From NCBI RefSeq assembly GCF_964355755.1, contig NC_092680.1, forward strand, positions 21,213,045 through 21,277,044: a DNA stretch of 64,000 nucleotides. Reading direction: 5' to 3'. Origin of the DNA: Antedon mediterranea. Taxonomy: Eukaryota; Animalia; Echinodermata. Position 1 is the stretch's first letter. The number at the start of each line of letters is the position of its first letter. A program made the position numbers and the translations under genes. Positions 341-37,613 of this stretch are shown piece by piece. The notes below the pieces were generated by a model. That model did no database searches and was not told where the DNA came from. It saw nothing but the letters and a program-made list of their open reading frames with translations.

Positions 341-1227
341 TTAAAATCAGCGCAAAGTTGTGTCTTGATCTAACCGGGTACCAATTATACACGTCTGGGT
401 GGAGAGAGACAAACGTAAGTTTGTGGTACTTGTGTTCATAATCATAAATAAAGCTATATCCATTTTTAAAATATCGAAAACAAAAATAATTAAATTGATA
501 CGTACCATGCCGCTAAGGCAACTGACTAACTCTGTCTTAACACTTTCCATATTAACACACGGTGTGTATTCCAAATATTAACATTCCATTATTCCGATTG
601 ATATAATCATATATGAAGAATCCCTGGTCATCACAGTACAACAGAGTCGGAGTTCATCTTTACTTATCGAATTTCTTTGACTGCTGTTCCAATACGGGCA
701 CGATCGATTCACTAACAACGACGGCTATTGACACTTTGCTGGAGGGCCAGCCATGTATTACACCGTGAGAGTCCCTATCGATCTGACGGTAAAAGAAGGA
801 GAAAAATTACCGTAAAGGCATCAGGTTAGAACGCACGAAACAAAAGACAACCGAATGCATTGCAGTAGTACCTATGCGCTAACAGTGTCGAGTCAGTTGA
901 TTATTTTTGCAGACAATAGTTCGGTGAACTAATTATGTACAATACATCCATTATAATTATTTTAAAGTCGGGTGCATTTTGGGAACTAATGTTCATGGCT
1001 ATCAAATGACATGATTGACGTATGACCCAGATTAACTTTTGTAATCATATTTAATAAATACATTAAACTTAATTTGCTCTATCAAAGACTGAATTATAAT
1101 AAATTGTGTATTAATATTAGTAGTAGTCTAGATATTATCAGATATATTAGCGTATGTAGGTTTGGTTCACACGCACACAAAGCAATATGCAAATGATTGG
1201 TTCCCAGGATGCAATGCAAAGATGTAA

Positions 1228-1372
1228 AGCTTGGTTCCCATTGACGTAACGCAAGGACGTAAGCGCAACGCAAGCGAGTTGATTATTGACAACAACCTGA
1301 TGTATTGTGTCGAGATTGGTAAAATTACTTGCGCTGCGCTTACGTTGCGTCGTCCTAGTGGGAACCACGCTT
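1228..1372. mobile_element. MITE family B copy (further degenerate pieces to ~1535)
   Basis: AGCTTGGTTCCCA..ACGCAAGGACGTAAGCGCAACGCAAG..TAGTGGGAACCACGCT. Confidence 0.8.
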
Positions 1373-2895
1373 TTGCGATGGATTATTTGAACTGTAGCTT
1401 GTCATTGGCCAACTCGATTGCGTTTACGTCCCTGCATGAGTGATAACCAAACTTAAGGACGACACAAAATATAAAGGACATTTCAAATCATCCGTCGCTT
1501 TTAATTGGTCAAGCTTACTTCGTGCGTTGCGTGTGTTAGTATTATATTAAGAGCGCAACTCTCCTCCCCTCCCCCAACAAATCAAATGTTTAGTACTATG
1601 TAGATTTAGGAGATATAATACATTGTGTCTTGGTTGTCAGTTGGTGAATTAGTCTGTCAGACCCTCAATCACCCTCAGTAGTAGTGGCTTCGTCTCAGTA
1701 GCAAGTCATTAGGCAACGCTGACCTGTCCTGGCTGTGTTTGTGAAACTAAACTCATGCAATTACGTGGGTTGCTATTCAAACAGAGTTCTGACTACATCT
1801 ATGTAATCATGTTCTGTAACATTAAAGTCCTATGACATTAACCAACATACGTTCTATGACATTAACTAAAATGTTAAACAAAATTTATAGTATTCAATTA
1901 ATTCCGCATGACATTTTGTTAAGTTACTTGGATAACGGTAACTTTGAACTACGATTAAAGAAATAATAATCATTATATAACACCTAAATACATTACTGTC
2001 ATTTGATTGGACGAGTGTGGGTCACATGGCGTGCATTAGTACGCACTATTGAACGGTCGCATTCAATCAGGGAAGAGTGCCTTCTTTGATATCATAATTA
2101 TAATATTTAAAATTTTAAAAACTATTATACTCCATGGTAAACACTAGTAATATTGTAAAGCTGAATTTGGCTCATCATAATGTAAATTGAGTTTGCAACG
2201 TGATAACGAGATTAAGGTTGGCAAGCTTACACTGAAATATCAAACACGCTGCTGAATTAAATCAATTTGTCGTACAATTAATTCACTACTTAAAATTTTG
2301 TGTCAATCAAATGGCAGATTTTATACGACATTAATTAATACGGCATGTTACATATCATTCATAGATAATAATGTGGATATTACAAACATTGTGGTTTGAA
2401 TTGCAAACAAAATGGCTATAGGATAATTTTTATTGTACGTCATTAATCAACTCCGATGTTGCATGTTATTGCGCACAACACAAACGCGTTCAATTATCTC
2501 TTTTAGAGCTTAGACGGAACAGAAACAGTTTGATCTTTCTTGACCAGTATAAATGTTCTATTGTTCAATTAATTTGATTAGAAGCATAAATGAGTTTTTG
2601 TTTGTTGTTTAAAGCTTAGACTTAGCTTTTCGTAGCTGGAATATCTAAGTAAGAGAATTGATGCTCGCCCGGAATCACAACATTACGACTGTGAAAACAC
2701 ACCATGTTTGTATATATATTGTATACATTTTTTAACGTACGGGTGAGTTTTAAAACAAAGTGAAAAATGTGTTGCAATGGCTGTATTCCACTCATGATGC
2801 AAAAAGAAAACATAATAAACATTATTGTGTCTTCTGACAACAAACGCTATCACATGGGAAACTGCTCGACACAATGACGTAGGCAGGCTGTGTAA

Positions 2896-7532: not shown

Positions 7533-7659
7533 AAGTTAGGTTTCCATCGTAACGTACGCAACGATGATTTGACCAATCACAAGCGATGGATGAAACAATG
7601 GTTTGTCATTGGTCAAATCGCTTACGTCCTGCGTTGCGTCTATAGTGGGAACCATGCTT
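7533..7659. mobile_element. MITE family B copy (another degenerate copy at ~9078-9205)
   Basis: TTGACCAATCACAAGCGATGG..CTTACGTCCTGCGTTGCGTCTATAGTGGGAACCATGCT. Confidence 0.75.
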
Positions 7660-11856: not shown

Positions 11857-12441
11857 TTATTTATTGACGATTAAAAATTAAGTTCCTTGTACAGTATTGT
11901 ATGTTTTTGAAAAAATCAGTAAAAATAAATGTCTGCATGTCCGAAAATGGATATAATATTTGATATAAAATGGGGTAGAGACTTTTTTTTCTGAATACAG
12001 AAAAAAATAGAGAGCGTCTATCGTATTCTAGTTTCAATCATAATATCATTCAAATATAAAAAACAAAACAAAAAACAATAAACATAGAGTATAATTTAAC
12101 TGTTACTGATTATTTCTATTTATTTAGCAAAGAATGTATATACATTTGAAAACGAACAGTAACTTCAATTGGTACATTCTGGTAAAAGAGCAGAGTATCT
12201 TAAGACACAATGAGAGAATGGCTTACATCATGCAATGGACATTAAGACTGGAATATTAAAATAAGTGGGTGTTTTATATCCTAGCTAGAAATACTGTTTA
12301 TTAAAAACATGGGCTTCTTTATTTCTACAAAAACGAATGTTGAATGTTATTTTATTTTAATAATAATTTTCAACCTAAATGATGTTTATACTAAATAAGA
12401 TACTAAATGTAAATCATGCAAAATGTTACTGAATGTTGTTA

Positions 12442-12778
12442 TGCACTTGTCAATTGTATGACTCACTATACGACCCCCGGGAGAGGTGCGTCATGGGTGC
12501 GTCATTTACAAATAATTACTGACGCAGGGGTGCGTCAAAAAACCTAGATGGTACGTCACATCAATGAACAAGGTGTGTCAATGTCCGTCACTTTACCACC
12601 CACCATATCATAAACAACATGGTCACAGTGCGTCAAAATGGGTACGTCATGGTCACCTAAAGGTTAAGTCACCTTTTTGACGAACGGGTGCGTCATGGTA
12701 TTCAAAAGTATGACGCACATCGGACAAATGACGCACCTCTCCCGGGGGGGGGGGGGGGTCATACAATTAACAAGTGCA
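12442..12778. mobile_element. Palindromic MITE (family C) downstream of the RPA2 stop codon
   Basis: TIR TGCACTTGTCAATTGTATGAC..CCCCCGGGAGAGGTGCGTCAT / ATGACGCACCTCTCCCGGGGG..GTCATACAATTAACAAGTGCA, flanked by TTA on both sides. Many internal TGCGTCA/TGACGCA repeats. Confidence 0.85.
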
Positions 12779-13064
12779 TTAGCACATGAGAAGCAACTTA
12801 TGTGCCATCCCCATAGAGGTGTTGTCATCAAACCTAGAGTGTCAACCTCGGCATAATTGAGTAGTTGACACTCTAGTAGTTTACTATGATTTCCCACAAA
12901 CCAACAGCTCTGTATTTCTCACATTATTAGCATTTTCTAATGTTAGCTCACTTTGATTTCAAAACAAAAGATAAATATGAAACTGAAAGTGTCACCAAGA
13001 AAGTTGCTTATGATTGTTTTTCTTGTATCGATGATGTCATCATAGTCAAAATCATCATAATCAT

Positions 13065-15880
13065 TCAACCATCAGTTGATTTGAAATGGTCATCATCAAT
13101 TGTTGAATAGATGTGGCCTTCGTTACTTAGAAACTCCAAAGCATTTCTGAAACAAAATTAATACTTGTTATATAATATAATAGTAGTTTTTTTGGGGGTT
13201 TTTTTGGGTACTATTTTCACTTTTTATTAGAACAGCCAAGTGAACAAAAATTAATAATCTTGCAATATTTAAGTCATAATTAAATTAACAATGCAAACAA
13301 GAAAAAGCGTATTTCACTTACTTTATGGCGTCTTTGGACACGCCCTTCAACTGGCTACAGAGGGCGCTAATACTGATTCCGGACTGGTCGCCGACATGCG
13401 CATTGATTAACTGATGTACCTAAAATATACAAAAGAAGAAATTTGATGGTTTCTGATAATTATTTAAATATAAACTGAAAACAATTGAAAGAGAAGGCGA
13501 CTGATGTTTTGATAACAGTAAAGTTGTTACATGTCACAATATCAGATCAGAGAGGTCACTAGAGAACCAACTAGAGTAGTAAATACATTACCTGGCCTTG
13601 CACCCCAGTTAGACCATTATTATTAACTCCTCCTCCATTATAAGCCCCTCCTCCCTTCACTGGGGTAACCATCATACTGCTTGAATGTCCATTTGATACC
13701 TGAAATTAAAAATGCTCACACTAACATTCTATGTACTGGTGTTATCAGGTACTCCATCTATGGGAGTTGAATCCCATTGATAATGAAAACCCAGGTACTC
13801 ATTTACAGATTATATTTTACCCACAATGCAATGAAACAACGTAAAAATAAATGTATTAAATGCTCACACTTGTTGCCAACTTGCTAATTAGCATATGACA
13901 TTTGGTGACCTCTAACATGTGCATTGAAATCTCATTGAGGTCAACGACTGGTAAAATACTAAACACGCTTAAGATCCTTTTGTTGTTGAATACACGCACC
14001 GTGCCGGTCACTCTTACATACGTATTTTCCTTGTGTAACATAGTTGTGTTTTCTTCTCCTTCCTACAAGACATTACAAGCGTATGGAAACACATTAGGCC
14101 TCTGTCTACACTATCAAACTTTATGTTACAAAACCATGTGATGTGCCCATATATGGACATGATGATTTCATATCACTATCATATTTGGGCACATCACACT
14201 TGTCATACTAGTTTGATAGTGTAGACAGAGCTTAAATGACAAAGCAGTAATGGCAACTAGTTCAAATCCTGACCACAACAAACAATTATAGTACATTTTA
14301 ATTTAAAATATTTATATTATAATAGCACTAAATAAAAACTTTGTACTCTATCACCTTCTATCATGCCATTCAATTTTTGGCAACTTTTAATATCCCGAAA
14401 GCTCTGTCTACACTATCAAATTTGATGTGACAAAAAAATGTGATGTGGCCATGGACATGATGATGTCATATCACTACAAATATCCCTTAGCAACTCGGCT
14501 ATGTTAGAATAGCAATTATTTTGAGAAATAATGTGTTTTAAATCAATTTCTTTCACTAGTTACAGCTTGATCACTATACTGCACTCTGATACTCACTGCT
14601 GAGTCAATCCACTCCCTTATTTCCATGGTTGATGATGTCATATCATGTAGTTCATACAAAACACAGGTTGCCTGAACTTCAATTCTCCGAACTAAACCGA
14701 CAATTGTCACCTGAGAAAATACAACAATATTGTAAAAGCATCCAACAATAAACAATACATCTGTACAGAATGTCATGATTCAGTTTTTTATAAATTATGT
14801 CAATTAATAAGGCCCCATAAAAAGTTATTACTTTATTACCCCCACGCACATCACTTTTGGAAAGCCAGAGCCAGCCTGTATTTAGGGGAATCACCTGATA
14901 TAAGAAGCTAATTGAATTGCTAATAGTTCAATCAAATTGACCACAAACAATATTTACCTGATGGATTTGGACATCACCTATTTTAAATATGTCATCAAGT
15001 TGTTCAGCCATCTTAATTTGTGCAATAGTACATGGTATTAAGTGCTTTGGCTTTTCCTTGTCCTAAATAAAAAGTTTCAAATATTTTAATAATGAAATAA
15101 ATAACAAATAATATTATACTATAATATACCGGTAACCATAACTATTATAATTTTTGCTTTAAGGTTACATTAATTGTAAACATGGCAGTACACAACTGTA
15201 GGATAAACCCAATAATTTGTACCTTTTTTTGTGTACTTTGTGTGGCGTCAAATCCACCTGGCGAGTTGAAATATCCACCTGATTGGGTGCTTTGTCCAAA
15301 TCCTGTGTAGTATAAAAAAGTATAGGCCTAGTATTAGTAGGCTAATAGAATGTCTCGGGAAGAACAACAGATTAGCTAGCAACTAGTTAGCTAGTTAGTA
15401 GGGTCAGACCAGGCTATTTATTTTATTTATAATATTACATGTAGAAAATTAATTTTAATTTAGTTAAAATTTGAAAACTTGATAAATTATATATCACAAA
15501 AGTTTAGGCAAGGCAATTATTTTGTGGGATGTGTGGTACGTATCGGCCTAAATGCGCAGGACATATGAGTGGTGTCGGCCTAAAAGTCACTTCGTACCCG
15601 GGCCGAAACGTCCCTGATTCGTGTAGGCCTAGCTACTAGTCCTAGTAGTAGCCTACTCTATATAGAGAGGCCTAGGGGTAGGCTGAATAGCTAGGCTAGG
15701 CAAGGCTAGGCCTAGACTAAAGGCCTAGCTAGGCCCAGGCAGGGCTAGACTGGGCCTACATTTTACCTAGAATAGAAAGAAGGTAAGAATAAAAAACTGT
15801 ATATATAGAAAACAAAATCCTACTAAACCAAGAGATGTATCACAGAAATTCACAGACTTACCTGACTCGTTTCCCCACAT
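13065..15880 (-). CDS. RPA2: Replication protein A 32 kDa subunit, 8 coding exons
   Basis: Exons reconstructed with GT-AG boundaries and consistent phase: 15862-15880, 15223-15302, 14958-15062, 14597-14710, ~13868-14062, 13592-13699, 13322-13419, 13065-13146. Translation: [91 protein letters not shown]. This matches the RPA32 phospho-domain, OB fold and winged-helix C-terminus. Confidence 0.96.
14098..14232. mobile_element. MITE family A copy in RPA2 intron (a second partial copy at ~14400-14478)
   Basis: CTCTGTCTACACTATCAAAC..GTTTGATAGTGTAGACAGAGCT. Confidence 0.85.
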
Positions 15881-16649
15881 GTTGTTTCAGATGTTCAATT
15901 AGTTATGATATGTACGTCAAAACAATTCGCAATAATTTCGCGCGATTTTCCTCCGATCCTCTCTCTCTCCTTGTTGAGTTTAGTTGCCAAATGTTATAGT
16001 ATAATACACCCAATTTTGAAAAACAGAATGCGAACACCATCGTAAAAAAATTATCATTAGATTTATTTAAATTATGTTTATTATAGTTTATTTATTATAT
16101 TGGTTATTATTCTAACAATTACCACAAGATTTAATTGATATAAAGAACTTCTTCTTTTAATTTAATTAATTTAAATCTGGTAACTCTCTTCAGTCAACAT
16201 TTTTAATAACAAACATTTTGACCTGCTCTCTGACCTCGTTTACGTTTTTTCTTCTCATTTGAGCTATATATCCAATACCAAATTGGCGAGTAAATCATGT
16301 TTTACTTTAAATTAAATTTATACGCTCTTCCACAAGGTCAATTGTTAGTTATACATACAGACTATATTAAAACAATGATTTTGAACACGTAGGGCATTTC
16401 TTTGAATTCTTTCCTATTGTCGTTTTGTGGTAATTTACAGCTTTTTATATGTTTAACAAACGTACATAATCAATTGCGTCTGCATCATGCTAGACTACAA
16501 CTTCCGGTAGTGACGTAATCAGCATATTTTTGATAATAAAACTTTTTCACTAAGCTAGGGAATCTTCTGATATCAATATTCATTAGACCGTACTTTAGTT
16601 AGCCAATCAAAATAAACGTATAAACAATTTTGCGGCGATGTTGTTGAGG

Positions 16650-19100
16650 TAAAATATACTGTGTTTTACAATAACCAATTTGGTTAGAGTAAAACACAAT
16701 GATAAAGAATAGGAAACATTTAATAATATGATAAATGTCATTACATAGCAATTTATCACTGTGTTTTACTATAACCAATTTGGTTAGAGTAAAACACAAT
16801 GATATAGAATAGGCAACATTTAATAATATGATAAATGACATTTACATAGCAATTTAGCACTGTGTTTTACTATAAACAATTTGGTTAAAGTAAAGCAGAA
16901 TGATAAAGAATAGGAATTTAATAATATGATATATGACATTTACATAGCAATTTAGCACTGTGTTTTACTATAACCAATTTGGTTAGAGTAAAACACAATG
17001 ATAAAGAATAGGAAACATTTAATAATATGATATATGACATTCACATAGCAATTTAGCACTGTGTTTTACTATAACCAATTTGGTTAAAATAAAACACAAT
17101 GATAAAGAATAGGAAACATTTAATAACATGATAAATGACATTTACATAGCAATTTAGCACTGTGTTTTACTATAACCAATTTGGTTAGAGTAAAACACAA
17201 TGATAAAGAATAGGAAATATTTAATAATAATGATTATTTACATAGCAATTTAGCACTGTGTTTTACTATAACCAATTTGGTTATAGTAAAACACAATGAT
17301 ATAGAATAGGAAACATTTAATAATATGATAAATGACATTTACATAGCAATTTATCACTGTGTTTTACTATAACCAATTTGGTTAGAGTAAAACACAATGA
17401 TAAAGAATAGGAAACATTTAATAATAATGATTATTTACATAGCAATTTAGCACTGTGTTTTACTATAACCAATTTGGTTATAGTAAAACACAATGATAAA
17501 GAATAGGAAACATTTAATAATATGATATATGACATTCACATAGCAATTTGGCACTGTGTTTTACTATAACCAATTTGGTTAGAGTAAAACACAATGATAT
17601 AGAATAGGAAACATTTAATAATTTGATAAATGACATTTACATAGCAATTTAGCACTGTGTTTTACTATAACCAATTTGGTTAAAGTAAAACACAATGATA
17701 AAGAATAGGAAACACTTAATAATATGATAAATGACATTTACATAGCAATTTAGCACTGTGTTTTACTATAACCAATTTGGTTAAAGTAAAGCAGAATGAT
17801 AAAGAATAGGAATTTAATGATATGATATATGACATTTACATAGCAATTTAGCACTGTGTTTTACTATAACCAATTTGGTTAGAGTAAAACACAATGATAA
17901 AGAATAGGAAATATTTAATAATAATGATTATTTACATAGCAATTTAGCACTGTGTTTTACTATAACCAATTTGGTTATAGTAAAACACAATGATATAGAA
18001 TAGGAAACATTTAATAATATGATAAATGACGTTTACATAGCAATTTATCACTGTGTTTTACTATAACCAATTTGGTTATGGTAAAGCACAATGATATAGA
18101 ATAGGAAACATTTAATAATATGATAAATGACATTTACATAGCAATTTAGCACTGTGTTTTACTATAACCAATTTGGTTAAAGTAAAACATAATGATAAAG
18201 AATAGGAAACATTTAATAATATGATAAATGACATTTACATAGCAATTTATCACTGTGTTTTACTATAACCAATTTGGTTATGGTAAAGCACAATGATATA
18301 GAATAGGAAACATTTAATAATAATGATTATTTACATAGCAATTTAGCACCATGTTTTACTATAACCAATTTGGTTATGGTAAAGCACAATGATATAGAAT
18401 AGGAAACATTTAATATTATGATAAATGTCATTACATAGCAATTTAGCACTGTGTTTTACTATAACCAATTTGGTTAGAGTAAAACACAATGACAAAGAAT
18501 AGGAAACATTTAATAATAATGATTATTTACATAGCTAGCAATTTAGCACAATGTTTTACTATAACCAATTTGGTTATGGTAAAGCACAATGATATAGAAT
18601 AGGAAACATTTAATAATATGATAAATGTCATTACATAGCAATTTAGCACTGTGTTTTACTATAACCAATTTGGTTAGAGTAAAACACAATGATAAAGAAT
18701 AGGAAACATTTAATAACATGATAAATGACATTCACATAGAAATTTAGCACTGTGTTTTACTATAACCAATTTGATTAGAGTAAAGCACAATGATAAAGAA
18801 TATGAAACATTTAATAATATGATAAATGACATTTACATAGTAATTTATCACTGTGTTTTACTATAACCAATTTGGTTAGAGTAAAACATTTTAACTATGA
18901 TAAATGATATTTAGCACTGTGCTGGATACAGTAAAACACAAATTAAGAATAGGAAACATATAATAATATGATACATTTACATACAAATTTAGTATTGTGT
19001 TTTACTATAGCCAATTTGGTTACAGTAAAACACAATGATAATGAAACATTTATTATATGATATTATTTACATAGCAAAATATTATATTAAACATATCTTA
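16650..19100 (+). repeat. Tandem array of ~97-101-bp monomers (about 24 copies), left arm of the foldback element
   Basis: Monomer AATTTAGCACTGTGTTTTACTATAACCAATTTGGTTAGAGTAAAACACAATGATAAAGAATAGGAAACATTTAATAATATGATAAATGACATTTACATAGC recurs, e.g. TGTGTTTTAC at 16861, 16959, 17060 and 17161. Monomers degenerate toward the inner edge. Confidence 0.97.
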
Positions 19101-19125
19101 TTATCTAAACGTTATGAAAAGAATA

Positions 19126-20385
19126 GGATACATATAATGTAATAATATAATAAATACAAGTTACATAGTTTATCATTTTGATTTACAGAACCAATTTGGT
19201 GACACAGTTAAACACAGTGATAAAGAATAGATACTGTTTTAGGTTATATAACCCTAACCCTAGTTTGAAGCGACATACTAAATTCATCGCGAAAAAGTAC
19301 GTATCGTATTTAGAAACTTTTGAAATTTGTTAGATATGTTTAATAGGTTCTTACGTCTATAAAACAAACAAAAAATATAAATTTCACAAAAAATTCGTGA
19401 TTTTAATAATTTGCATTTCTAAAAATGTACACTTATGAAATACCATACATTTTCCAACACATTTTTACTTCATTGATGATTCCCAGAAATCAAAATAAAA
19501 CAAATTATGATATTTCTTTTACATTATAGATGTAAGAACCTATATTGAACATGTACCAAATTTCAAACGTTTTTTAAGACGATACGTATATTTTTATCGA
19601 TGAATTAAGTATGTGATCGCTTCAAACTAGGGTTAGGGTTAAATAACCTAACAGTTCCATTCTTTAACACTGTGTTTAACTTGTAACCAAATTGGTTTTA
19701 GTACAACACAATGATAAACTATGTACATTTTATTTTTCATATTACATTATAGGATACATATAATGTAATAATAATAAATACAAGTTACATAGTTTATCAT
19801 CTTGTTTTACAGAACCAATTTGGTTACACAGTTAAACACAATGATAAAGAATAGACACTGTTTTAGGTTATATAACTCTAACCTTAGTTTGAAGCGATCA
19901 CATACTTAATTCATCGCGAAAAAATACGTATCGTATTCAGAAACATTTGAAATTTGGTAAATATGTTCAATAGGTTCTTACGTCTATAAAACAAACAAAA
20001 AATAAAAGTTTCAAGACAAATTCGTGATTTTAATAATTTGCATTTCTAAACATTTACACTTATGAAAGACAATACATTTCCAACACATTTTTACTTCATT
20101 GATGATTCTCAGAAATCAAAATAAAACTATTAGGATATTTCTTTTGCATTTTAGATGTAAGAACCTATATTGAACATATCTACCAAATATCAAACGTTTT
20201 TCAAGACGATACGTATTTTTAGCGATGAATATTAAATATGTGATCGCTTCAAACTAGGGTTAGGGTTAAATAAACTAAAACAGTTCTATTCTTTATCACT
20301 CACTGTGTTTAACTTTTAACCAAAATGGTTATAGTAAAACACAATGATAAACTTATATGTCAATTTTATTTTTCATAACATAAAA
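19126..20385. repeat. Two tandem ~625-bp palindromic modules (plus a third partial inverted copy at ~20650-20960)
   Basis: AGGATACATATAATGTAATA starts at 19126 and 19751. Each module has ~200-bp inverted arms (AACCCTAACCCTAGTTTGAAGCGA ... TCGCTTCAAACTAGGGTTAGGGTT) around a central spacer. Confidence 0.9.
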
Positions 20386-21579
20386 TGTTTGATATTCTTT
20401 ATAATATTTAATATTATATTTTAGGCCTACTATTAATGACGTATAAATGCACACTACATCTGAAATAACTTTCTACTTCATTGGCGATTCTTACCAAAAA
20501 AAAAGAACTAATTTTGTTATGTATATAGAGCAACCTATTATAACATGTCTTGTATGATTTTTATCTCGTTTCAATGACATTTTATACTACAATTCAAATG
20601 AAAAAGCATCACAAAAAAATACGTCTGGTATTCAAAAAGTTTCTAAACTCGGTACACAGAAAAAAGGAAATATTGAAAATGTATGGTCTTTCATAAGTGT
20701 GAATTTTTAGAAATGCAAATAATGGAAATCATCGATTTGTCTTGAAATTTATAATTTGTTTTGTCTTATTGAACATATCTATACAAAATGTCAAACGTTT
20801 CTGAATACGATACGTTTTTTTTCTCGATGAATTTATAATGTCGCTTCAAACTAGAGGGTAGGGTAGTAACCTAACAAGTATCTATTCTTTATCACTATGT
20901 TTAACTGTGTAACCATATTGGTTCTAATAAAAAACAATGATAAACTATGTAAATTGTATGTTTCATATAATTACATTTTTTCAAAAAAAAAATTATTGGG
21001 AATGTCAAATTTCTTTTTCATGACATATATCTACAAATTTCAGAAGCTTTTGAGTACGAGTATTTTACGCGATGTTTTTTTATCCTCATTTTAATATTTT
21101 GGTAATGTAATTCACATAAAGTATTATATCCAAAAATTGTTTATTCTTGGGTAGAAATGAGGAAATAAATAGTATTCCTGTATAATATAATAATCAATAA
21201 TAAAGTATAAAAAAAAATGTTGTGTAAACGAACGTTTTTTACGCTTCGAATTTTCTGTTACATTATGTTTGGATTGAAGCTACAGATATTGAATCATGGA
21301 CCTATAAATTAGTAATTTATAGGTCCATGATTGAACATATCGTCACTCACCACACATTTTTTGTTTTGTATTTCGAAAGTATTTATTCTAAAGAACAATT
21401 GATGCAAACATCAACTGCGTATCTTATTTCATTAATTAATTATATTAATTATAATTTGGCGATTATTCGTCACACGAAGAGTCGAATATCGATTCGTCTC
21501 GTCATGAGAAGAAAACGTGCATTGCGCACACTGTTTACGCGCCTCAACAATAAACGGCGAATATGCGATTCGTCACTTA

Positions 21580-22509
21580 TGGAACGCCGTTTTACACAAG
21601 TTTTTGGCGATGATAAAAATTGCATCGATGATGAAATTGCGTCGATGAAAATTGCATCGACGCAATGTAGATTGCGTCGATGCAATGTAGATTGCGTCGA
21701 CGCAATTTACATTGCGTCGATGAAAATTGCATCGATGAAAATTGCGTCGATGAAAATTGCGTCGATGAAAACTGCATCGATGAAAATTGCGTCGATGAAA
21801 ACTGCATCGATGAAAATTGATGTGATGAATTTAATTGATTATGAAAATTCCAAATGGTTTTAATTCAATCAATGATGAAAATGACTACTAGTAAAGTAAA
21901 TGATGATGTTAATAATGATGTTAATAATGTTATTATGTTGCTAAAAATTGACGGTTTCTGAATATTTTGATATGATAAACATGTTTACCGCTTGCGCTAG
22001 CGCGCGTTATAGACAAGCGCACAGTGATCGCGCACTAAAACAATGTTGAAATATATGCACTGATTAACATTTTAGTGATTTATTGTCAACACATTTTAGC
22101 AATGGATCCATTATTGTCCTTTCGGACACATTATATCTTCTAGCTAATTGCTTCCGTTAATCCACCAGTTCAGTACATAAAATCCAGATGTCCAGCATCC
22201 ATGACATCATATTCAAATCATACCGGCAGGGAGATCGCAATTTTCATCGATGAAAACTGCATCGATGAAAATTATTTTTTTTTTCATCGATGCAGTTTTC
22301 ATCGATGCAGTTTTCATCGACGCAATTTTCATCGACGCAATTTTCATCACATTAACGCAATTTTCATTACATCGACGCAATTTTCATCGACGCAATGTTC
22401 ATCACATCATTACATCAATACTATATTCATCGACGCAATTTTCATCACATCGACGCAATTTTCATTGCATCATCGACGCGATTTTATCATCGCCTAAACT
22501 GGCATTCCA
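21580..22509. mobile_element. Nested ~930-bp foldback/MITE whose arms are built from 15-bp ATCGATGAAAATTGC repeats
   Basis: Tandem 15-mers at ~21620-21825 and inverted copies at ~22238-22490. Outer ends are TGGAACGCC..GGCGATGATAAAA and TTTTATCATCGCC..GGCATTCCA, bounded by TA on both sides. Confidence 0.7.
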
Positions 22510-22859
22510 TACTAATTGCGTGTGATCTGATTGGTGTATTATAAATAAATTCATCGCGATGAATTTTTCAGTAGATGTAATGAGACAGTTCAGTAGATGT
22601 AATGACAGTTAATTTAATTGTTCTGCTCTTTTTGTACAAATCTATACTACTTTATATTATGGATTTTGTAGTACTGTTAAAATTATCAAATCTCTGGAAG
22701 TGTGTTTTACGAGTATGTCCGCAAATTTATGCGTTTACGGTTTTAAATAGCGAACATGATCTTGTTAGGTGCACTACGCACGCAGTACTCCAAAATGTCT
22801 TACTAATTGGGAGAAAATCATATTGTATCATATCATATTATATCCATTTTTTAAATTCA

Positions 22860-24860
22860 TATTCTTTATCCAAAACTAAATTGGTATAGTAAAACACAGT
22901 GCTAGCAATTTATCATATTATTAAATGTTTCATATTCTTTATCATTGTGTTTTACTCTAATCAAATTGGTATAGTAAAACACAGTGCTAAATTGCTATGT
23001 GAATGTCATTTATCATATTTTTAAATGTTTCCTATTCTTTATCATTGTGCTTTACCATAACCAAATTGGTTATAGTAAAACACAGTGCTAAATTGCTATG
23101 TAAATGTTATATATCATATTATTAAATTCCTATTCTTTATCATTGTGTTTTACTCTAACCAAATTGGTTATAGTAAAACACAGTGATAAATTGCTATGTA
23201 AATGTAATTTATCATATTATTAAATGTTTCCTATTCTTTATCATTGTGTTTTACTCTAACCATTTTGGTTATAGTAAAACACAGTGATAAATTGCTATGT
23301 AAATGTAATTTATCATGTTATTAAATGTTTCCTATTCTTTATCGTTGAGTTTTACTCTAATCAAATTGGTTATAGTAAAACACAGTGCTAAATTGCTATG
23401 TAAATGTTATATATCATATTATTAAATGTTTCCTATTCTTTATCATTGTGTTTTACTCTAATCTGATTGGTTATAGTAAAACACAGTGCTAAATTGCTAT
23501 GTGAATGTCATTTATCATGTTATTAAATGTTTCCTATTCTTTATCATTGTGCTTTACTCTAACCAAATTGGTTATAGTAAAACACAGTGCTAAATTGCTA
23601 AATGTCATTTATCATGTTATTAAATGTTTCTTATTCTTTATCATTGTGTTTTACTCTAACCAAATTGGTTATAGTAAAACACAGTGCTAAATTGCTATGT
23701 AAATGTCATTTATCATGTTATTAAATGTTTCTTATTCTTTATCATTGTGTTTTACTCTAACCAAATTGGTTATAGTAAAACACAGTGATAAATTGCTATG
23801 TAAATGTAATTTATCATATTATTAAATGTTTCCTATTCTTTATCATTGTGTTTTACTCTAACCAAATTGGTTATAGTAAAACACAGTCATAAATTGCTAT
23901 GTAAATGTTATATATCATATTATTAAATGTTTCCTATTCTTTATCGTTGTGTTTTACTCTAATCAAATTGGTTATAGTAAAACACAGTGCTAAATTGCTA
24001 TGTAAATGTTATATATCATATTATTAAATGTTTCCTATTCTTTATCATTGTGTTTTACTCTAATCTGATTGGTTATAGTAAAACACAGTGCTAAATTGCT
24101 ATGTGAATGTCATTTATCATGTTATTAAATTAATGTTTCCTATTCTTTATCATTGTGCTTTACTCTAACCAAATTGGTTATAGTAAAACACAGTGCTAAA
24201 TTGCTAAATGTCATTTATCATGTTATTAAATGTTTCTTATTCTTTATCATTGTGTTTTACTCTAACCAAATTGGTTATAGTAAAACACAGTGATAAATTG
24301 CTATGTAAATGTAATTTATCATATTATTAAATGTTTCCTATTCTTTATCATTGTGTTTTACTCTAACCAAATTGGTTATAGTAAAACACAGTGATAAATT
24401 GCTATGTAAATGTTATATATCATATTATTAAATGTTTCCTATTCTTTATCGTTGTGTTTTACTCTAATCAAATTGGTTATAGTAAAACACAGTGCTAAAT
24501 TGCTATGTGAATGTCATTTATCATGTTATTAAATGTTTCCTATTCTTTATCATTGTGCTTTACTCTAACCAAATTGGTTATAGTAAAACACAGTGCTAAA
24601 TTGCTAAATGTCATTTATCATGTTATTAAATGTTTCTTATTCTTTATCATTGTGTTTTACTCTAACCAAATTTGTTATAGTAAAACACAGTGCTAAATTG
24701 CTATGTAAATGTAATTTATCATATTATTAAATGTTTCCTATTCTTTATCATTGTGTTTTACTCTAACCAAATTGGTTATAATTTATTTAATTTCATTTCA
24801 AAAGACATTTACCTAAATTGCTATTTAATTATAGTAAAACACTGTGCTAAATTGCTATTG
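22860..24860 (-). repeat. Inverted tandem array of the same ~100-bp monomer (about 20 copies), right arm of the foldback element
   Basis: Reverse complement of the 16650-19100 monomer (TTTATCATTGTGTTTTACTCTAACCAAATTGGTTATAGTAAAACACAGTGCTAAATTGCTATGTAAATG...). Confidence 0.97.
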
Positions 24861-25502
24861 TATTAAGGACGAGTTCCGAGAAGATGTATTCAAAGCTACA
24901 ACCAATCAGAACAGTGTTAATCAATATAGTCCATGGCTACAGCCAATCAGAAACGTCCAAATCGCAATAACCCCTAGGCTAATAGAAATTATTGGTCCGA
25001 GTAGCCTTTTCAACCAGACGTTGCGAGGTTTAAAAAGTAAAACATGATTTACTCGCCAGTTTGGTATAGTTTATATACCTGCTCATTTCGGATCGTACGT
25101 ATACTCTGTAAATAAATAATATCACTTTATACGATAATTAATTGCTATTAGTCGATTGTTGTATATATTGCACAGAAATCTAAGCGTATTAATTGAAAGG
25201 TAAGACATTTAATAGAGAGATCATTTAGCTAGGCCTAGCCCCCCGTACGTAGCCAGCCTAACAAGTTGAAGAAATATTGCGATCAGCAAATGAGATCATT
25301 TCTGACGACTTATCGCTGCATGCCTGGTCGTTTGGTCCATGTTAATTTTTTTGCGTTTAACCTAAATAAATGTAAACTTTGTTTGGTTGAACCATTTTTG
25401 AGTTTGATTTAGGTTCGGGCATGGAGAGCCTCAATCATAAAACTTGCAGTAGCCTAGTTTTATGAAGTATGATTATTTTCCCTTTTCCAGGTAGTTGCAT
25501 TC

Positions 25503-26874
25503 ATGATGATGTCACCAGGCAAATTTCTCTGTAGAACATTGCCACTTGTAAGAAATGTTATAAAAAGAAGTTGTTACAAGGAAGGCATCACAGCAATTAA
25601 TCTAACTGAGGTGACTTCAAGTCAACAAATTCAGCACTCGGAGTTGAACGCGCCAAAGGACAGTTTTAGACCACCATTGTATATTGAGAGTACCCAAAGA
25701 GTGACACTTCAGGGCCTAGGTGGAGGAAGTATTGAGAGTGACTTAAATAATGAGACAGGAATTGCAACAATCACCATTAGCAACACAAAGAATGCAAATG
25801 CACTATCAGGTAAAAAATAGATTAAATTTAATTAATAAATTAAAATATTAATATATTGATATAAATCTGGTTTTATGTTTCAAATGTTGGTATGTTTGAC
25901 CTACCAAATGATAAATTTAATTTTAAAAGCTAAGGTTTTACTTCAATTTATGATAAAGTGGACGCATTCAAATGGAGTTTACAATTATATGTCAGATTAT
26001 ACGCATGCTTAGAGAGTGATTTGGAAGATGAAAACAAGAATATGCATGCGTATTAGCTGGCGCTTTCGATTTACACAAACAAATTCGCCTAGTGGAAAAC
26101 CGGCTTAAAGTAAATATACACTGAATATACTACCCTCAATTTGAGTAATAATTGAATTAAAACATGTTGTTTTTTTTTTTAGGATCTATGATGGTAGAAC
26201 TCGCAGATGTTATTTCTGAGCTTGAAAATTGGAAGAAAGGTAAAGCTGTTATACTTGTGGGCAACCCAAATGGAAACAATTTCAGTGCTGGAGCTGACCT
26301 GACATCAATGAAAGAATTGAAAACACCTCAAGCAGGTACCATGATGTGTTTATTCATGCAGAACACTTTACTGCGGCTGCAACAACTTCCGTTGATAAGC
26401 GTTGCAGCCATTGATGGAAGAGCTATGGGTGGCGGTGCAGAGATCACGACGTCATGTGACTTTCGAATTATGACGGAAGGATCCGTCATACAATTTGTGC
26501 ACAGAAAGCTTGGTCTGTCTCCCGGATGGGGTGGGGGCGCTAGACTTGTCCACATTGTCGGACACAGAGAAGCATTAAAAATGTTATGTAGTTCTGATCC
26601 AGTGGACGCTGAAACTGCTCTGAAAGTTGGCTTATCTGATGGAACTTTACCAGAAACCAAAGATCTAATTAAGGGAACAGCTGATTGGCTAGCTCCTTTT
26701 ATTAGTGCCCCATACCAGCTTGTTCAAGCAATAAAAAAAGTTGTTTTAGCTGGTTCGGAACTTCCTCTTGATAAAGCTATGAAAAAAGAAAAAGATATTT
26801 TCACAGGTCTGTGGGCAGCAGACTTGCAACTGGAGATAATGGAACGCTACATGAAACAAAAGCGTTTTAAATAA
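25503..26874 (+). CDS. ECHDC1: Ethylmalonyl-CoA decarboxylase (crotonase/enoyl-CoA hydratase fold), 2 coding exons
   Basis: Exons 25503-25809 and 26183-26874 join in frame (NALSG|SMMVEL). Motifs GGGSIE, ELENWKKGK, FSAGADL, CLFMQNTL, AMGGGAEITTSCDFRIM and PGWGGG match ECHDC1. Candidate upstream non-coding exon with donor AAG|GTAAGA at 25200 and acceptor at 25490. AATAAA at ~26883. Confidence 0.92.
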
Positions 26875-29196: not shown

Positions 29197-31182
29197 TTAA
29201 AATACTTGTATTCTCTTATTCTTCGAGTCACAGACAACTATGTTACCGCCTCTTGTCATGACAACACCCATTGGGTAGTCAAGCCTTCCATTTTCTGCAC
29301 CTTTAGAGCCAAATGATGTTATAAATTTCCCCGCCCTATCAATAACTTGTAGCCGATGGTTTCCAGCGTCAACCACAATCAGAAACGAATCATCAACGGC
29401 TACTCCAGTTGGTTCTCTCAGCTGACCTAGGTTCACGCCTTCAGAACCTATTGAGCAAAAGAATTTCCCAGATTGTTCAAACACCATGATACAATGTTTT
29501 AGAAGATCGGTAACGATAAGTTTGTCGTGGAATGTTGTCAGACCAGATGGGTATTTGAATTGTCCATCTCCCCAGCCGTGATGTCCAATCTGTCGGATGT
29601 AGATACCTTGTCGATCAAGCACTTTGATACAATAATGATCTGGATCACAAACATAAATGTTACCTCTTTCATCACAATCTATACCAGTTGATTTATAATT
29701 AAAGCTTTGAGATCGTTTAGGGCGACATATTGCAAGTTGATCTAACGGTGTTCCTGCTGAATTGTACACCTGGATGAACAAAGTGGCATCAACGACTAAA
29801 ATTTGACCCATTGCATTTGTACAGATTCCTTTTGGATACATTAGCTGTCCTTTCTTCATACCCTTTTTTCCAAACATCAATAGATGTTGGCCCGCCGGGT
29901 TAAAAACATGGACACAATGATTTTCACTGTCAACTACAAAATATTTTCCTTGAGCCACGGCCACATCGTAAGGAACTCCTAAAACTCCAACTCCAAAGAC
30001 TTTACTCGGTTCACCTTTATTCTTAAGCACTGTTTCTCTTTGTTTCATTTGTATTGTCTGTTTTAGTTCAATGTTAAATAAATTAAATATTGTTGATCTG
30101 GGAGTGATGTCTTTCTGAGACCCATCAACGTTGTTACCAGAGTCTCGTCGTTCCCTGGGTTTTGGTGTTGGATTTCGCTGTCGTTCATTTGCTGGTATTG
30201 ACGAATAAGGTGAAGATGGTAAAGAAGAAGATAGAGAATTTCGACGACGTCTTTCGGATTCATTCGCAACACCATTTCTTGCAGAGGCTATTTCAAGATA
30301 TCTGTCTGTACTATGGGACACGACAACAGAACTGGGTCGTTTTGGCTTAGCTTGTACGAGTGGCGGATTGTTGTTGTCAGCCTTTGAAGATGCAGGTCTT
30401 CGTATATCAACTGATTTGGAATGACCAACTTGAACTTTTCCAAAGAAACTTTGGGCAGACGACAACTGCTCTCTACCACATTCCACGTAGACAATCTTTT
30501 TAATTTCAGAACTCAATCTGCTCTGTATTTCGGCCATTGATTTACTGAAATCTGTGCACGTTTTAAGAAGATCAACTAATTGTGTCTCTTCAACTTTTAC
30601 ATTAGGAATTTCTTTGCTGAATTCTTCAATTTTGGAAATCTTCTCGCGGTATGTCGCTTGCTTTCCTTTAAGAGTTTCAATTTCAACTTTGACATGGCTA
30701 TCAATCTGCGCCCACAAGTCCTTTTGTCTCTGCTTCAATTCGTCTCCAATCTGTTTAAAACTTTTCTGGATTTCACTTTTTGCAAGTTCGGCTCTACTGT
30801 TCAATTGTCTCCTCTGACGCTCCATGTTCCAGAAAGCATCGACCTGCTCTTTCAGTTCGCTTGTTCTTTTCTCTAAACATTTCTTGAGATCGTTGTTTCC
30901 TTGTTGTTCTCTGGCTACAGACTGTGACTTCATTTCCACCAAGCTAGTGATGGTGACATTACTTGGTAACCCCTTTGAACCTTCTGAGGACAAAGAATGA
31001 AGCGTACGGCATTCGGGACATTTCAAACGAAGCGGTTTCTTGTCACCTTCTAGTTGCTGTAGACACGTTAAACAAAAGGTATGATAACAAGGTAAGCCTT
31101 TAGGTAGATGGTATCCTTCGTCGTATTGCTCAAAACATAGAGAACACTCCAAGAGTACGGCTATGTCACTTTCTCCAGACAT
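29197..31182 (-). CDS. RING-HC + coiled-coil + NHL-repeat protein (TRIM-NHL-like E3 ligase), single coding exon, 661 aa
   Basis: N-terminal C3HC4 RING (CSLC..LPCYHTFCLTC..CPEC), a helical coiled-coil, a Ser-rich linker and about six NHL repeats (P.GVAVD..G.I.V.D..NHRIQVF). Acceptor 7 nt upstream of the ATG (31190-31191) and candidate 5' UTR donors at 31754 and 32302. Confidence 0.9.
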   Translation of the reverse strand: MSGESDIAVLLECSLCFEQYDEGYHLPKGLPCYHTFCLTCLQQLEGDKKPLRLKCPECRTLHSLSSEGSKGLPSNVTITSLVEMKSQSVAREQQGNNDLKKCLEKRTSELKEQVDAFWNMERQRRQLNSRAELAKSEIQKSFKQIGDELKQRQKDLWAQIDSHVKVEIETLKGKQATYREKISKIEEFSKEIPNVKVEETQLVDLLKTCTDFSKSMAEIQSRLSSEIKKIVYVECGREQLSSAQSFFGKVQVGHSKSVDIRRPASSKADNNNPPLVQAKPKRPSSVVVSHSTDRYLEIASARNGVANESERRRRNSLSSSLPSSPYSSIPANERQRNPTPKPRERRDSGNNVDGSQKDITPRSTIFNLFNIELKQTIQMKQRETVLKNKGEPSKVFGVGVLGVPYDVAVAQGKYFVVDSENHCVHVFNPAGQHLLMFGKKGMKKGQLMYPKGICTNAMGQILVVDATLFIQVYNSAGTPLDQLAICRPKRSQSFNYKSTGIDCDERGNIYVCDPDHYCIKVLDRQGIYIRQIGHHGWGDGQFKYPSGLTTFHDKLIVTDLLKHCIMVFEQSGKFFCSIGSEGVNLGQLREPTGVAVDDSFLIVVDAGNHRLQVIDRAGKFITSFGSKGAENGRLDYPMGVVMTRGGNIVVCDSKNKRIQVF

Positions 31183-31422
31183 CGTTTATCTACGCATAAA
31201 TATACAATACAAAATGTTATTGACGAGCAATCTAGTCATATAAGTTCAGGTATGTCGCGGACTAAGTAAGTAAGTATGTAAGTATTCATTGAAGATATTG
31301 AAGAATTTTAGCCCTCTTATTATAATTATGATGATAAAAAAAAACTTTAAAATTAAAAATTTCCCTCACCAAACTTTGGTTATTTTGTTCCAATAGTGAA
31401 ATGAAAAATAATTTAGCTCAGT

Positions 31423-34492: not shown

Positions 34493-35238
34493 TCCAGTCC
34501 CTTACCAAGCCACAATGCAGTGATGTAGTTAGCTTATAAATTAATGTCTATTCCAGCATTTAAATTTTAAAATGGCAAACATGACTTGTACAATATTGAG
34601 ATTGCAAATAAAGTAAATGTAATCTTGTATTCATTTGTATTGTTATTTGTTTTATAAATCACAAATTGAACAAACTACACCAATTTGGTTAAAAGAAGTG
34701 TGCCCTCTATATCAGCACAACGGTTTATACTAATGTAGCTGCTGCGGTTTCTGGCTATAGTAGAAATAAGAAGAAAATAATCAGATACATAATGAAGCAC
34801 ATGACATCAGCAGAAAACAACTAGTTTTGGATATTCATGAATTTGTAATTCTTTCCGAAACAGCCACAAATTTGTGAAACTAACTTGCTTGACAGTTTCT
34901 TCAGACGAAATGACAAATGTCATTAAACTAACAAGCTGGTTAGTTTCGCAAATTTTTTTCAAAAAGAATTACAAATTTAGAAAACAAATATCGCACACAA
35001 GTAAAGAAATTATGAAATGTTAAGAAAATTCTACCAGTCGTTCAAATAATCCATTGTAGAGCATTGTCAAAGTGCGAGCCAGAGGGGAATGCAATTCATG
35101 TGCAATAATGATTCAACAGAACAAACAGTGGGAGCCCACACACAAAAGCCTAATGTTAATCTTTGTACAATTCATAAAAAAATTATAATAATCAGTCGAC
35201 GGAGCTAACAGGTCATCTTGTTTACAGCTAGATTATTA

Positions 35239-35417
35239 AGCGTAGTTCCCACTAGTGACGCAACGCAAGGACGTAACGCAACGCAAGTGAATTGACCAAT
35301 CACAAGCGATGGCTTATTCGCTTGTGATTGCTAACTGTCCATAACTTCGCTTGTCATTGGTTAAAACGCTTGCGTTGCGTTTACGTCCTTGCGTTACGTT
35401 CTAGTGGGAGCCAAGCT
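35239..35417. mobile_element. MITE family B (PIF/Harbinger-type), best-preserved copy
   Basis: Near-perfect palindrome AGCGTAGTTCCCACTAG..ACGCAAGGACGTAA..TTACGTCCTTGCGT..CTAGTGGGAGCCAAGCT, with TTA on both sides. Confidence 0.88.
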
Positions 35418-37613
35418 TTACTAGTTTCGTTACGGATTGGTTGAAAGTTGCTTGTTACTCAACCGTGAACAACCAGAAAATGAATTGATCCTACCGATTT
35501 ACCGATAAAGGCACAATAACACAGAAGGTGAAATTAAGTTAAAATAAAACTAGAAACAAAACACATACAATACACGAGGCACCTTCTATAAATTAATGTA
35601 AAAAGATTACTCAAGTAAATAAACAGTGTGGCGTGTTGACCGCGAATGACAAACCACCAGTCCCACTACACCTGCACAATTTCATTTGCATAACAACGCA
35701 CAGCATACCAAGCCGTGTCGTACAACTACGATGAGATATAAATTCTCTTCTTCACGTAACGAAGAGAATTATCAATTCTAAAATATAAACGGTGGATATG
35801 CGCTCTCTTGATGTGATAAACTATGACGAAAGAGATGGAAATACTACTTTTTACATGTTATTCAAATTTTTATCCATGATGACGTAATCAAAATAAAATG
35901 GCGGTAATTGATTAACAATTTGGGTATCCTAAATAAACTTAGCTTTCTAAAAATCTCTCAAAAAACAACATTTATTTTTAATTAAAAAAAATCTGTATCT
36001 GTAAAGATTTTAACACCAGGTAGAGCAGAGAGTAGGCAACTCAAATTAGGGCGTATTACCCGTTGGGCCACCAAGTACATGACTGAACAGCTGATAATAG
36101 TCTGCTTCATATTACGTCATTCTAACCGTTACGTCATAATATGCATATTCATGAGCACCATCTTGAGGGAACAAAGCTTGTATTAACGTAGCAATAAATA
36201 AGACGGCCGGTTAACAACACGACTGTCGTGGGTTCTAACCCCACGCTGGTGGAATAGAGTTAAAGGTATGCGACCAACTGTGTTTGGGTTCACAGAATTA
36301 TACGTCCCCCTTTCCAATAGGCAATAACTTCAATGCATCTGGTAATGTGCTGGAAACGACCCCAAAAGGCTGTGGCAAGGCCTTAGTGCTGAGGCAGGGA
36401 GAGCACATTTAACATCTTTTTTTTTGGCTTATGCCACCTGTATTCGATCTCGTAAATTTTATGTTTAGCGCCCTCAATTTTAAGAACGCCCGCGTTTACA
36501 GTAGATTATTTATCCATGTCTTACTGTACTTTATGTATAATTCAATTCAATTCACTTTTATTTCAGAACAAAGTCCATATCATAACACATAACAATATTC
36601 TAAAAAATAAATGTAAGTAAGTAAAAAAATCTAAACCACATAATTTATGCCGTCGGAAAACCGTCGGTTTTCAACTGGAGTGAAAAAACATTTACCGTAG
36701 CCTTAAAGTATAATAATAAGACGAATTGATCGTACTACAAATCGGAAACAAGTTTTCCAAATCAATGAGCGTTATGAAATTGAAAAGTTAACCTGGCAAC
36801 CTATTAAGTCAGACGATGAACATATCATTGGCGCCACTTTCCTATTTCTTCTTATTTATTTAACAATCTTTTCAATGCGGCGTATCGATAATCAGAATAC
36901 TGAATCTTTCGTTAGTAGCTTTATTTATAGTAAAAACACGCGATATGAATAATTAGTTGCTATTGAATGACCATCCTCTAGTTTCTATACATACTTTCTA
37001 CTTTTATATACTTAAGTTCACTTTCCTATATTTTTTGTTAAAGTATGATTCGGTGGTGGTATTTACAAATCATTTAGAATTACATTCTATACTCTGTACT
37101 TTATAATACTTAAGTTCACTTTCTTATTAATAGTAATAACTGTATTTTTCCGTGGTCAATAATTTAGATAGAAGATGGTAAATATACAGCAGGTGAACAT
37201 GGAAAACTCGTAATGGCAATTCCGCTCACACAGAGTTACGGGACGTCGGGAGTGAGACATCAGTCTCAGGTGTGTGTATAATTTACATGAGTACATCGTG
37301 ATTTTAGGCCTATATCGCATGGATTATGATGACGAATGTTTGAACTCAGTGGGGAGGGGGAGAATTGCAGGATAGAGTGAGGTGCCAATGAAGCGTGGTT
37401 TTTATACCGTTTCGTAATTCACGTAAAATGCAACGAATACAAACTAACGGCAACTTTTAAGTTAAAATTTTCATTCGTGTTGACGTTACGACTTTAACGT
37501 TACGACTTAATTGACGATAAAAATACGAAGACTGCAGTATAGAAATAGTGTGATGAGGGTGATATATTGATTGTGAAAAGGATCGCAAAGAAAACATGAT
37601 GAGGAAGATTTAA

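What the first reader, a model, noticed from the sequence alone, without database searches (positions are those of the whole stretch)
16254..25088. Nested ~8.8 kb foldback element: palindromes inside palindromes, with real termini and a target-site duplication
Seen: four levels of inverted symmetry. (1) A ~55-bp hairpin (TTTAKCACTGTGTTTTACTATAACCAA-T-TTGGTTAGAGTAAAACACAATGATAAA) in every ~100-bp monomer. (2) Two 2-2.4 kb monomer arrays facing each other. (3) ~625-bp palindromic modules whose arms begin with a degenerate monomer. (4) A separate 15-mer foldback core. A ~48-bp outer TIR lies a few hundred bp outside the arrays, with direct repeat CT(T/G)CTCATTT on both flanks. Known: Drosophila FB, sea-urchin TU and Galileo elements have long, internally repetitive TIRs. 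Inference: this is a non-autonomous foldback family, possibly undescribed, that carries and spreads a satellite. The superfamily is ambiguous: 7-bp TSD (P/Galileo-like, end 25081), 9-10-bp TSD with one mismatch (Mutator/FB-like), or GAG..CTC termini with 4-bp ATTT (Sola-like, end 25084).
Basis: partly seen in the sequence, partly recalled or inferred. Interest (0 to 1): 0.85.

Follow-up and report, generated by a model that had tools for sequence, protein, structure and literature searches.

The report
Palindrome-packed transposon splitting a gene's start
An 8.8-kb gene-less stretch made of facing satellite arrays and palindromes sits in the first exon of a metabolic gene in this assembly but is absent at the same spot in other sequenced copies; it is a real jumping element of a multi-copy family, likely moved by a P-element-type enzyme made elsewhere, and a new example of a design already known from flies and beetles.

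Summary
Real and mobile. The insert is 16261-25081 (8,821 bp) with 48-bp TIRs (42/48 identical) and a 7-bp TSD, CTCATTT. Public-run contigs show the empty site with one CTCATTT in two samples. Other copies stop at the same two ends, so the Sola-like (end 25084) and 9-10-bp readings are refuted. The family's termini are mismatched: GAGC at the left, CAGG at the right read inwards. End contigs are about 60-75 times deeper than the flank (roughly that many copies), and a second species carries near-identical ends. The insertion lies inside the spliced 5' exon of an enoyl-CoA-hydratase-family gene, head-to-head with an RPA2-like gene. The symmetry is real but side by side rather than concentric; no transposase remnant was found. 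Closest known: Galileo (P superfamily; 7-bp TSD; a 9-kb gene-less copy with repeats in its TIRs), Tetris and Tribolium Rehavkus/TfSat06. The superfamily is inferred only (P about 0.55; hAT and Mutator remain). Untested: whether other copies carry the arrays and interior. The scan earlier noted a similar design (181/186-bp monomers) elsewhere in this genome, with no sequence look-alike. New member of a known kind.

The parts
16254..16260 (+). Left target-site duplication CTCATTT (7 bp)
   Evidence: single copy in the empty allele
16261..16308 (+). Left TIR, 48 bp, starts GAGC
   Evidence: 42/48 to right TIR; other copies diverge before 16261 in X2 and X5, and depth jumps here
16309..16645 (+). 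Left subterminal domain, not an inverted copy of the right one; ETS-, CRE- and CCAAT-like motif matches (names recalled)
   Evidence: one contig at depth 1966 against a flank of 33 in X1
16658..18888 (+). Left array, 22.4 x 101-bp monomers, each with a ~55-bp hairpin; decays to ~19110
19123..19751 (.). Palindromic module 1 (degenerate monomer + inner arm + ~100-bp middle + inverted arm)
   Evidence: arms 81% identical
19749..20413 (.). Palindromic module 2, 88% direct repeat of module 1
   Evidence: arms 82.5% identical
20583..20980 (-). Partial, more diverged third module (about 80% over 20673-20977), inverted; a further decayed arm lies at 21020-21197
21286..21338 (.). 53-bp near-perfect hairpin
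   Evidence: z = -8.3
21602..21849 (+). 15-mer array, left arm of the core foldback
22236..22498 (-). 15-mer array, right arm of the core foldback; an 18-bp palindrome at 22548-22565 shares a 14-mer with the module arm
22908..24780 (-). Right array, 18.7 x 101-bp monomers, with its own internal block duplications
24790..25033 (+). Right subterminal domain with two CCAAT-box matches (24900, 24941) pointing out of the element
25034..25081 (-). Right TIR, 48 bp; reads CAGG inwards and ends CCTG on the + strand
   Evidence: family contigs end at 25081 in X1, X2, X5 and X7
25082..25088 (+). Right target-site duplication CTCATTT
25089..25199 (+). Remainder of the non-coding first exon of an enoyl-CoA-hydratase-family gene; on the empty allele the spliced contig starts at 16244 and runs across the insertion point
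   Evidence: X5 record 21, loose ends matching 16244-16253 and exon 2 at 25494; ECH_1 Pfam E=1.5e-35 for 26161-26871
13571..15954 (-). RPA2-like host gene, head-to-head with the ECH gene (host flank, not part of the element; lower limit approximate)
   Evidence: exon 14546-14713 matches RPA32, E=5e-8; splice joint 15301-15861 in X5

Best explanation
This is a gene-less cut-and-paste transposon of 8,821 bp with a 7-bp target duplication, present in this assembly and absent at the same site in other sequenced copies, and likely moved in trans by a P-superfamily (Galileo-like) transposase. Shown: ends, TSD, empty site, repeated ends in two species, position in the first exon of the ECH gene. Inferred: the transposase reads the 48-bp ends and short subterminal domains, and extra binding sites in the monomer arrays would favour longer arms, as shown for Galileo and Muta1. 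Inferred: each arm's array grew separately by slippage or unequal exchange, and the centre grew by repeated duplication and inversion of an 'inner arm - middle - inner arm' unit during break repair. Inferred: the copy landed in the open bidirectional promoter region of RPA2 and ECH, as P elements tend to, and would move the ECH exon 8.8 kb away from its shared promoter.
For: Empty allele with one CTCATTT in X1, X2 (sample S1) and X5 (sample S2) (loose end equals window 16231-16253). The flank contig ends exactly at 16260 in X1 and X2, a fork as expected for a heterozygote. Right-end contigs stop at 25081; in X7 the mean depth of bin 25080-25087 (1440.2) is exactly 2/8 of the previous bin (5760.8), and in X5 it equals that plus the empty-allele contig. 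Left and right ends have matching depth: 1966/1819 (X1), 431/468 (X2), 176/169 (X5), about 60-75 times the flank in S1. The arms are not mirror images: 0 of 374 between-arm monomer pairs are identical, against 5 of 367 within-arm pairs, and a right-arm block repeats at 394/402. No transposase hit in 23 frames. Galileo and 1360 make 7-bp TSDs (PMC3698922); a 9,021-bp gene-less Galileo copy has ~140-bp repeats in its TIRs (PMC4168063); THAP sites lie in Galileo repeats (PMC3688188); P elements favour promoters (PMC7776569); MULE TSDs are 8-10 bp (PMC5499845).
Against: No autonomous partner was seen, so the superfamily rests on TSD length and structure. The left end starts GA, not the CA recalled for P elements. 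hAT families with 7-bp TSDs exist in Repbase (PMC4455052 passage). The 7-bp TSD comes from one locus; left and right flanks of other copies could not be paired. No contig crossing the filled right junction (25081 into 25089+) was listed in X1 or X2. TIR-monomer similarity is weak: local-alignment P = 0.09-0.14, longest shared word P = 0.03 and 0.09, so 'binding sites in monomers' is not shown.
Confidence: 0.55

Rival explanations
1. Same real, polymorphic element, but moved by a hAT transposase.
For: The right end reads CAG inwards, typical of hAT (recalled); hAT families with 7-bp TSDs are in Repbase; unequal left and right subterminal domains are common in hAT (recalled).
Against: [quoted passage not shown]
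Confidence: 0.2
2. Same element, moved by a Mutator/Rehavkus/Phantom-type transposase, as most foldbacks are.
For: Most foldbacks are assigned to Mutator (Tetris paper); Rehavkus elements carry satellite arrays in inverted termini; the left end GAG fits G-starting MULE ends (recalled).
Against: The TSD is exactly 7 bp given the empty allele, against 8-10 bp for MULEs and 9 bp for Tm1.
Confidence: 0.13
3. The mobile family is much shorter or more variable, and this 8.8-kb interior (modules, 15-mer core, perhaps the long arrays) is a one-off chimera or holds old nested insertions. This is compatible with the best explanation for the ends.
For: Deletion-type joints 16298 to 16466 and diverged end variants exist; the core has its own outer inverted edge at about 21578/22513.
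Against: The X5 left-end contig runs straight from the TIR into monomer sequence (loose end behind 16653); module arms start with degenerate monomers; no TSD surrounds the core or the modules.
Confidence: 0.3
4. Assembly artefact: a foldback chimera, or a mis-joined repeat placed at an empty site.
For: No listed contig bridges the filled right junction; no raw long reads were available.
Against: The fork lies exactly at 16260 in X1 and X2; the TSD is perfect; the arms carry arm-specific variants and are not mirror copies; the modules are 80-88% alike, not identical.
Confidence: 0.05
5. Sola-like element with GAG..CTC ends (end 25084) and a 4-bp ATTT TSD.
For: The letters at this one locus allow that reading.
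Against: Family contigs end at 25081, and X5 and X7 have no element depth beyond it; CTC belongs to the empty site.
Confidence: 0.01

Closest known systems
Galileo (P superfamily), especially D. willistoni copy 112 (PMC4168063, passages and section 6 read; PMC3573991, passages; PMC3688188, abstract and sections 5 and 12)
   Same: 7-bp TSD; gene-less copy of about 9 kb; tandem repeats of 100-200 bp in facing arms with unequal numbers; conserved terminal 40-50 bp; arms extended by recruiting internal sequence.
   Different: Galileo TIRs are continuous; here unrelated left and right subterminal domains separate the 48-bp TIR from the arrays. The target is not GTANTAC. The first bases of the two ends are mismatched family-wide. 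About 20 monomers per arm, each a hairpin, and tandem palindromic modules. No transposase is known; not an insect.
Tetris of Drosophila virilis (PMC4079207, first sixth of the text and passages)
   Same: Non-autonomous foldback with flanking, tandem-repeat outer, inner and middle domains; a satellite in the arms.
   Different: Tetris has 8-10-bp TSDs and is assigned to Mutator; its flanking domains are part of the TIR; its monomer is 220 bp.
TfSat06 / Rehavkus elements of Tribolium (PMC12581902, passages)
   Same: Kilobase satellite arrays as the inverted termini of a transposon-like element.
   Different: Rehavkus belongs to MuDR (PMC4455052 passage); no 7-bp TSD appeared in the passages read.
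Sea-urchin TU and Drosophila FB (recalled; seen only as citations)
   Same: Long internally repetitive inverted arms in an animal.
   Different: Short repeat units and 8-9-bp TSDs (recalled, not checked); no sequence comparison was possible.

Membership tests
Non-autonomous TIR (cut-and-paste) DNA transposon | TIRs at defined ends | tested here: met
   42/48 identical; family contigs start at 16261 and stop at 25081
Non-autonomous TIR (cut-and-paste) DNA transposon | TSD, single at the empty site | tested here: met
   one CTCATTT in X1, X2 and X5
Non-autonomous TIR (cut-and-paste) DNA transposon | Dispersed copies with different flanks | tested here: met
   different loose flanks at both ends and end depth 60-75 times the flank; pairing of ends per locus is not shown
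Non-autonomous TIR (cut-and-paste) DNA transposon | No transposase gene | tested here: met
   23 of 122 stop-to-stop frames of 35 aa or more (chosen outside the arrays) scanned: no family at its curated cut-off
Foldback structure (FD-OD-ID-M) | Long inverted arms containing tandem repeats | tested here: met
Foldback structure (FD-OD-ID-M) | Flanking domain is part of the inverted repeat | tested here: not met
   16309-16645 against 24790-25033 scores at shuffle level; only the outer 48 bp pair
P superfamily (Galileo/1360 type) | 7-8-bp TSD | tested here: met
   7 bp at one locus; literature
P superfamily (Galileo/1360 type) | CA..TG termini (recalled) | tested here: inconclusive
   right end fits (CAGG inwards); left end is GAGC in all copies seen
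P superfamily (Galileo/1360 type) | THAP-domain P transposase in an autonomous partner | not testable with these tools
   no genome is held for this window
Mutator/MULE foldbacks | 8-10-bp TSD | tested here: not met
   7 bp against 8-10 bp
hAT | TSD mostly 8 bp, sometimes 7; YA..TR ends (recalled) | tested here: inconclusive
   7 bp; right end fits, left end does not
Sola2/Sola3 | GAG..CTC termini and 4-bp TSD (recalled; paper not held) | tested here: not met
   the family's right end is CCTG at 25081

The most novel reading that the evidence does not exclude
A long-lived lineage of giant P-like foldbacks outside insects, with permanently mismatched ends (GAG/CAG), homes to bidirectional housekeeping promoters and is tolerated there because its CCAAT/ETS-bearing subterminal domains act as replacement promoters, thereby ferrying a hairpin satellite into gene starts.
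Probability: 0.12. Interest if true: 0.72.

Novelty: new member of a known kind. Interest (0 to 1): 0.42.

Why it matters
It is a segregating, cleanly bounded case of a satellite-laden foldback with a known empty allele. One can therefore ask directly what 8.8 kb of palindromes does to a shared housekeeping promoter (allele-specific expression in a likely heterozygote) and how arrays grow inside arms. If a P-type partner is found, it extends the Galileo design, which I saw described only in Drosophilidae, to another animal group. It would also give a family whose two ends differ at the first base.

Tried and rejected
No whole genome is held, so no genome-wide collection of copies or partner search was possible. 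Exact-pattern scans found nothing: TIR 22-mer and monomer 22-mer in metagenome contigs, TIR 22-mer in viral contigs. Rfam: 0 hits in 15000-26500. The frames at 21228-21863 and 22144-22497 are 15-mer read-through with no Pfam hit; weak pentapeptide-repeat hits are below cut-off. Derivation of the monomer from the TIR: not significant. Derivation of the 15-mer core from the module arm: they share a heptamer (24 in the element, 3 in the other 55 kb), but the longest-word test is not significant for either 15-mer array (P = 0.61 and 0.96); only the spacer palindrome passes (14-mer, P = 0.007, one of 7 regions tested). No nested TSDs. No run was on record as RNA; X5 is a guessed RNA run with some intron cover, so its depth on the element ends is not used as evidence of transcription. 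Organism B gave no cover of the insertion site, which shows nothing about its state there. The sigma-70 scan is irrelevant to an animal. Other copies' right flanks that partly match CTCATT could not be decoded into a target consensus. No earlier scan note resembles this sequence. The Sola, Phantom and Galileo 2008 papers and one P-element review were not held.
Full report
What the sequence shows. The window is animal DNA with spliced genes. Earlier scan notes call the genome a feather star; I did not check this. Two 101-bp arrays face each other: 16658-18888 (22.4 copies) and 22908-24780 (18.7 copies). Each monomer holds a hairpin far more stable than shuffles (z = -6.5). Between the arrays lie two 625-bp palindromic modules (88% alike, arms 81-83% complementary), a third partial inverted one, a 53-bp hairpin and a small foldback of 15-mers. 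A 48-bp TIR (42/48) bounds everything, and CTCATTT lies on both sides. The symmetry is discontinuous: the 250-340 bp just inside each TIR are unrelated to each other, and the modules and core sit side by side, off-centre, without their own TSDs.

Is it an artefact? I aligned 44 monomer units, dropped 5 of abnormal length, and compared 39 (22 left, 17 right). No left-right pair is identical (0 of 374, minimum 2 differences), while 5 of 367 within-arm pairs are. A right-arm block repeats at 394/402. The arms therefore expanded separately and are not a mirror chimera.

Public runs. Nine runs hold the right flank: four of sample S1 and one of sample S2 (organism A), and four of organism B at a share of about 0.15. 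I laid four of the nine (X1, X2, X5, X7), all as contigs, on the two junctions only. Left: flank contigs have depth 33-40 in X1 and about 6 in X2; the subterminal contig has 1966 and 431. The flank contig stops exactly at 16260 in both runs. Other copies diverge before 16261 (X2, one contig; X5, three contigs). Right: a contig in X1 and X2 covers 25082-25260 and continues upstream with exactly window 16231-16253, which is the empty site with one CTCATTT. X5, another sample, shows the same. Family contigs end at 25081 in all four runs, and in X5 and X7 the bin depths leave no room for element sequence beyond it. The insert is thus 16261-25081 with a 7-bp TSD; the Sola-like and 9-10-bp readings fail. 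The ends are GAGC (left) and CAGG (right, read inwards) in the family as a whole. Left and right end depths match, about 60-75 times the flank in S1 and 12-18 times in organism B. The tool warns that depth is not a copy number, so this is rough. S1 is likely heterozygous: the fork fits, and the observed depth 29.6 is close to the 30.1 predicted, though this is within noise. Against: no listed contig bridges the filled right junction. Graph cleaning may drop such links, but this is not shown. S1 may be the source of the window and is then not independent; S2 is a second sample.

Second species. In X7 one contig matches 16266-16397 at 132/132 and the right end at 40/40. Host exon-containing pieces differ by 3 substitutions and 15 gap letters, and 6 substitutions and 23 gap letters. 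One diverged right end is followed by a similar flank in organisms A and B, which likely marks an old shared insertion. The family is then likely older than the species split yet still segregating; exchange between species is not excluded.

Host context. The left gene is RPA2-like, on the minus strand, with a spliced contig reaching 15954. The right gene is of the enoyl-CoA hydratase family. Its spliced contig in X5 starts at 16244 on the empty allele, crosses the insertion point, and splices from 25199 to 25491. The element therefore sits at least 17 nt inside the transcribed first exon, within about 300 bp of the opposite gene's start. Contigs cannot give the true start, and X5 is only guessed to be RNA, although the splice supports it. 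CCAAT-, ETS- and CRE-like matches lie in the subterminal domains (names recalled; function untested).

Mechanism. No transposase remnant was found in 23 of 122 frames scanned, so movement must be in trans. I commit to a P-superfamily partner (0.55). Galileo and 1360 make 7-bp TSDs (PMC3698922, passages). A 9,021-bp gene-less Galileo copy has tandem repeats in both arms (PMC4168063, section 6). Galileo arms grow by repeat expansion and by recruiting internal sequence (PMC3573991, passages). Galileo repeats bind the THAP domain (PMC3688188, sections 5 and 12). P elements favour promoters (PMC7776569, passages). More subterminal repeats raise Muta1 excision, and MULE TSDs are 8-10 bp (PMC5499845, passages). 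hAT remains possible, since Repbase holds 7-bp hAT families (PMC4455052, passage), and so does Mutator, to which most foldbacks are assigned (PMC4079207, passages). That the monomers carry binding sites is an analogy: TIR-monomer similarity is marginal.

Novelty. The design is in print (Galileo, Tetris, TfSat06/Rehavkus). Ten literature searches listed no description of this family or of a Galileo-like foldback in echinoderms. Repbase, Dfam and subscription journals were not searchable, and no supplements were read; they may hold it. An unchecked scan note (e1-10650426) reports a 19.4-kb element of the same design between back-to-back genes in this genome. If that holds, it would hint at a shared promoter preference. 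Verdict: new member of a known kind, unusually well evidenced, interest 0.42.

Noticed in passing
window 9629, 11711, 14099, 14398, 27804, 33785, 34281, 37611, 47055, 60553, 61238 (each 80-190 bp): Eleven copies of a ~140-bp palindromic MITE; several have intact ends next to TTAA/TAAA-like flanks, possibly Kolobok-type (name recalled).
   Followed up: partly
window 1224-1373, 2926-2957, 7548-7659, 35238-35421: A second palindromic MITE-like family.
   Followed up: no
window 12433-12787: A ~355-bp element with 62-bp inverted ends (81%) and many GCGTCA/TGACGC repeats inside.
   Followed up: no
window 29197-31185 (-): Single-frame 662-aa RING + coiled-coil + NHL (TRIM-NHL-like) gene.
   Followed up: partly
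window 52852-56871 (-): Single-frame 1339-aa FAM110-family gene, much longer than the vertebrate members I recall.
   Followed up: partly
run X5, record 21 (matches window 16261-16298): A diverged left TIR lies inside a 565-nt contig at depth 200 in the guessed RNA run; possibly an old copy within a host transcript.
   Followed up: no
runs X1, X2 and X7, loose end behind window 25081: A diverged right end with a similar flank in organisms A and B: likely an orthologous old insertion.
   Followed up: partly
window 19252 and 19638, 20265 (module arms): A short CCCTAA-type (telomere-like) dimer in the module arms; meaning unknown.
   Followed up: no
window 62602-62847 and 63258-63497: A 246-bp direct repeat at 89%.
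   Followed up: no
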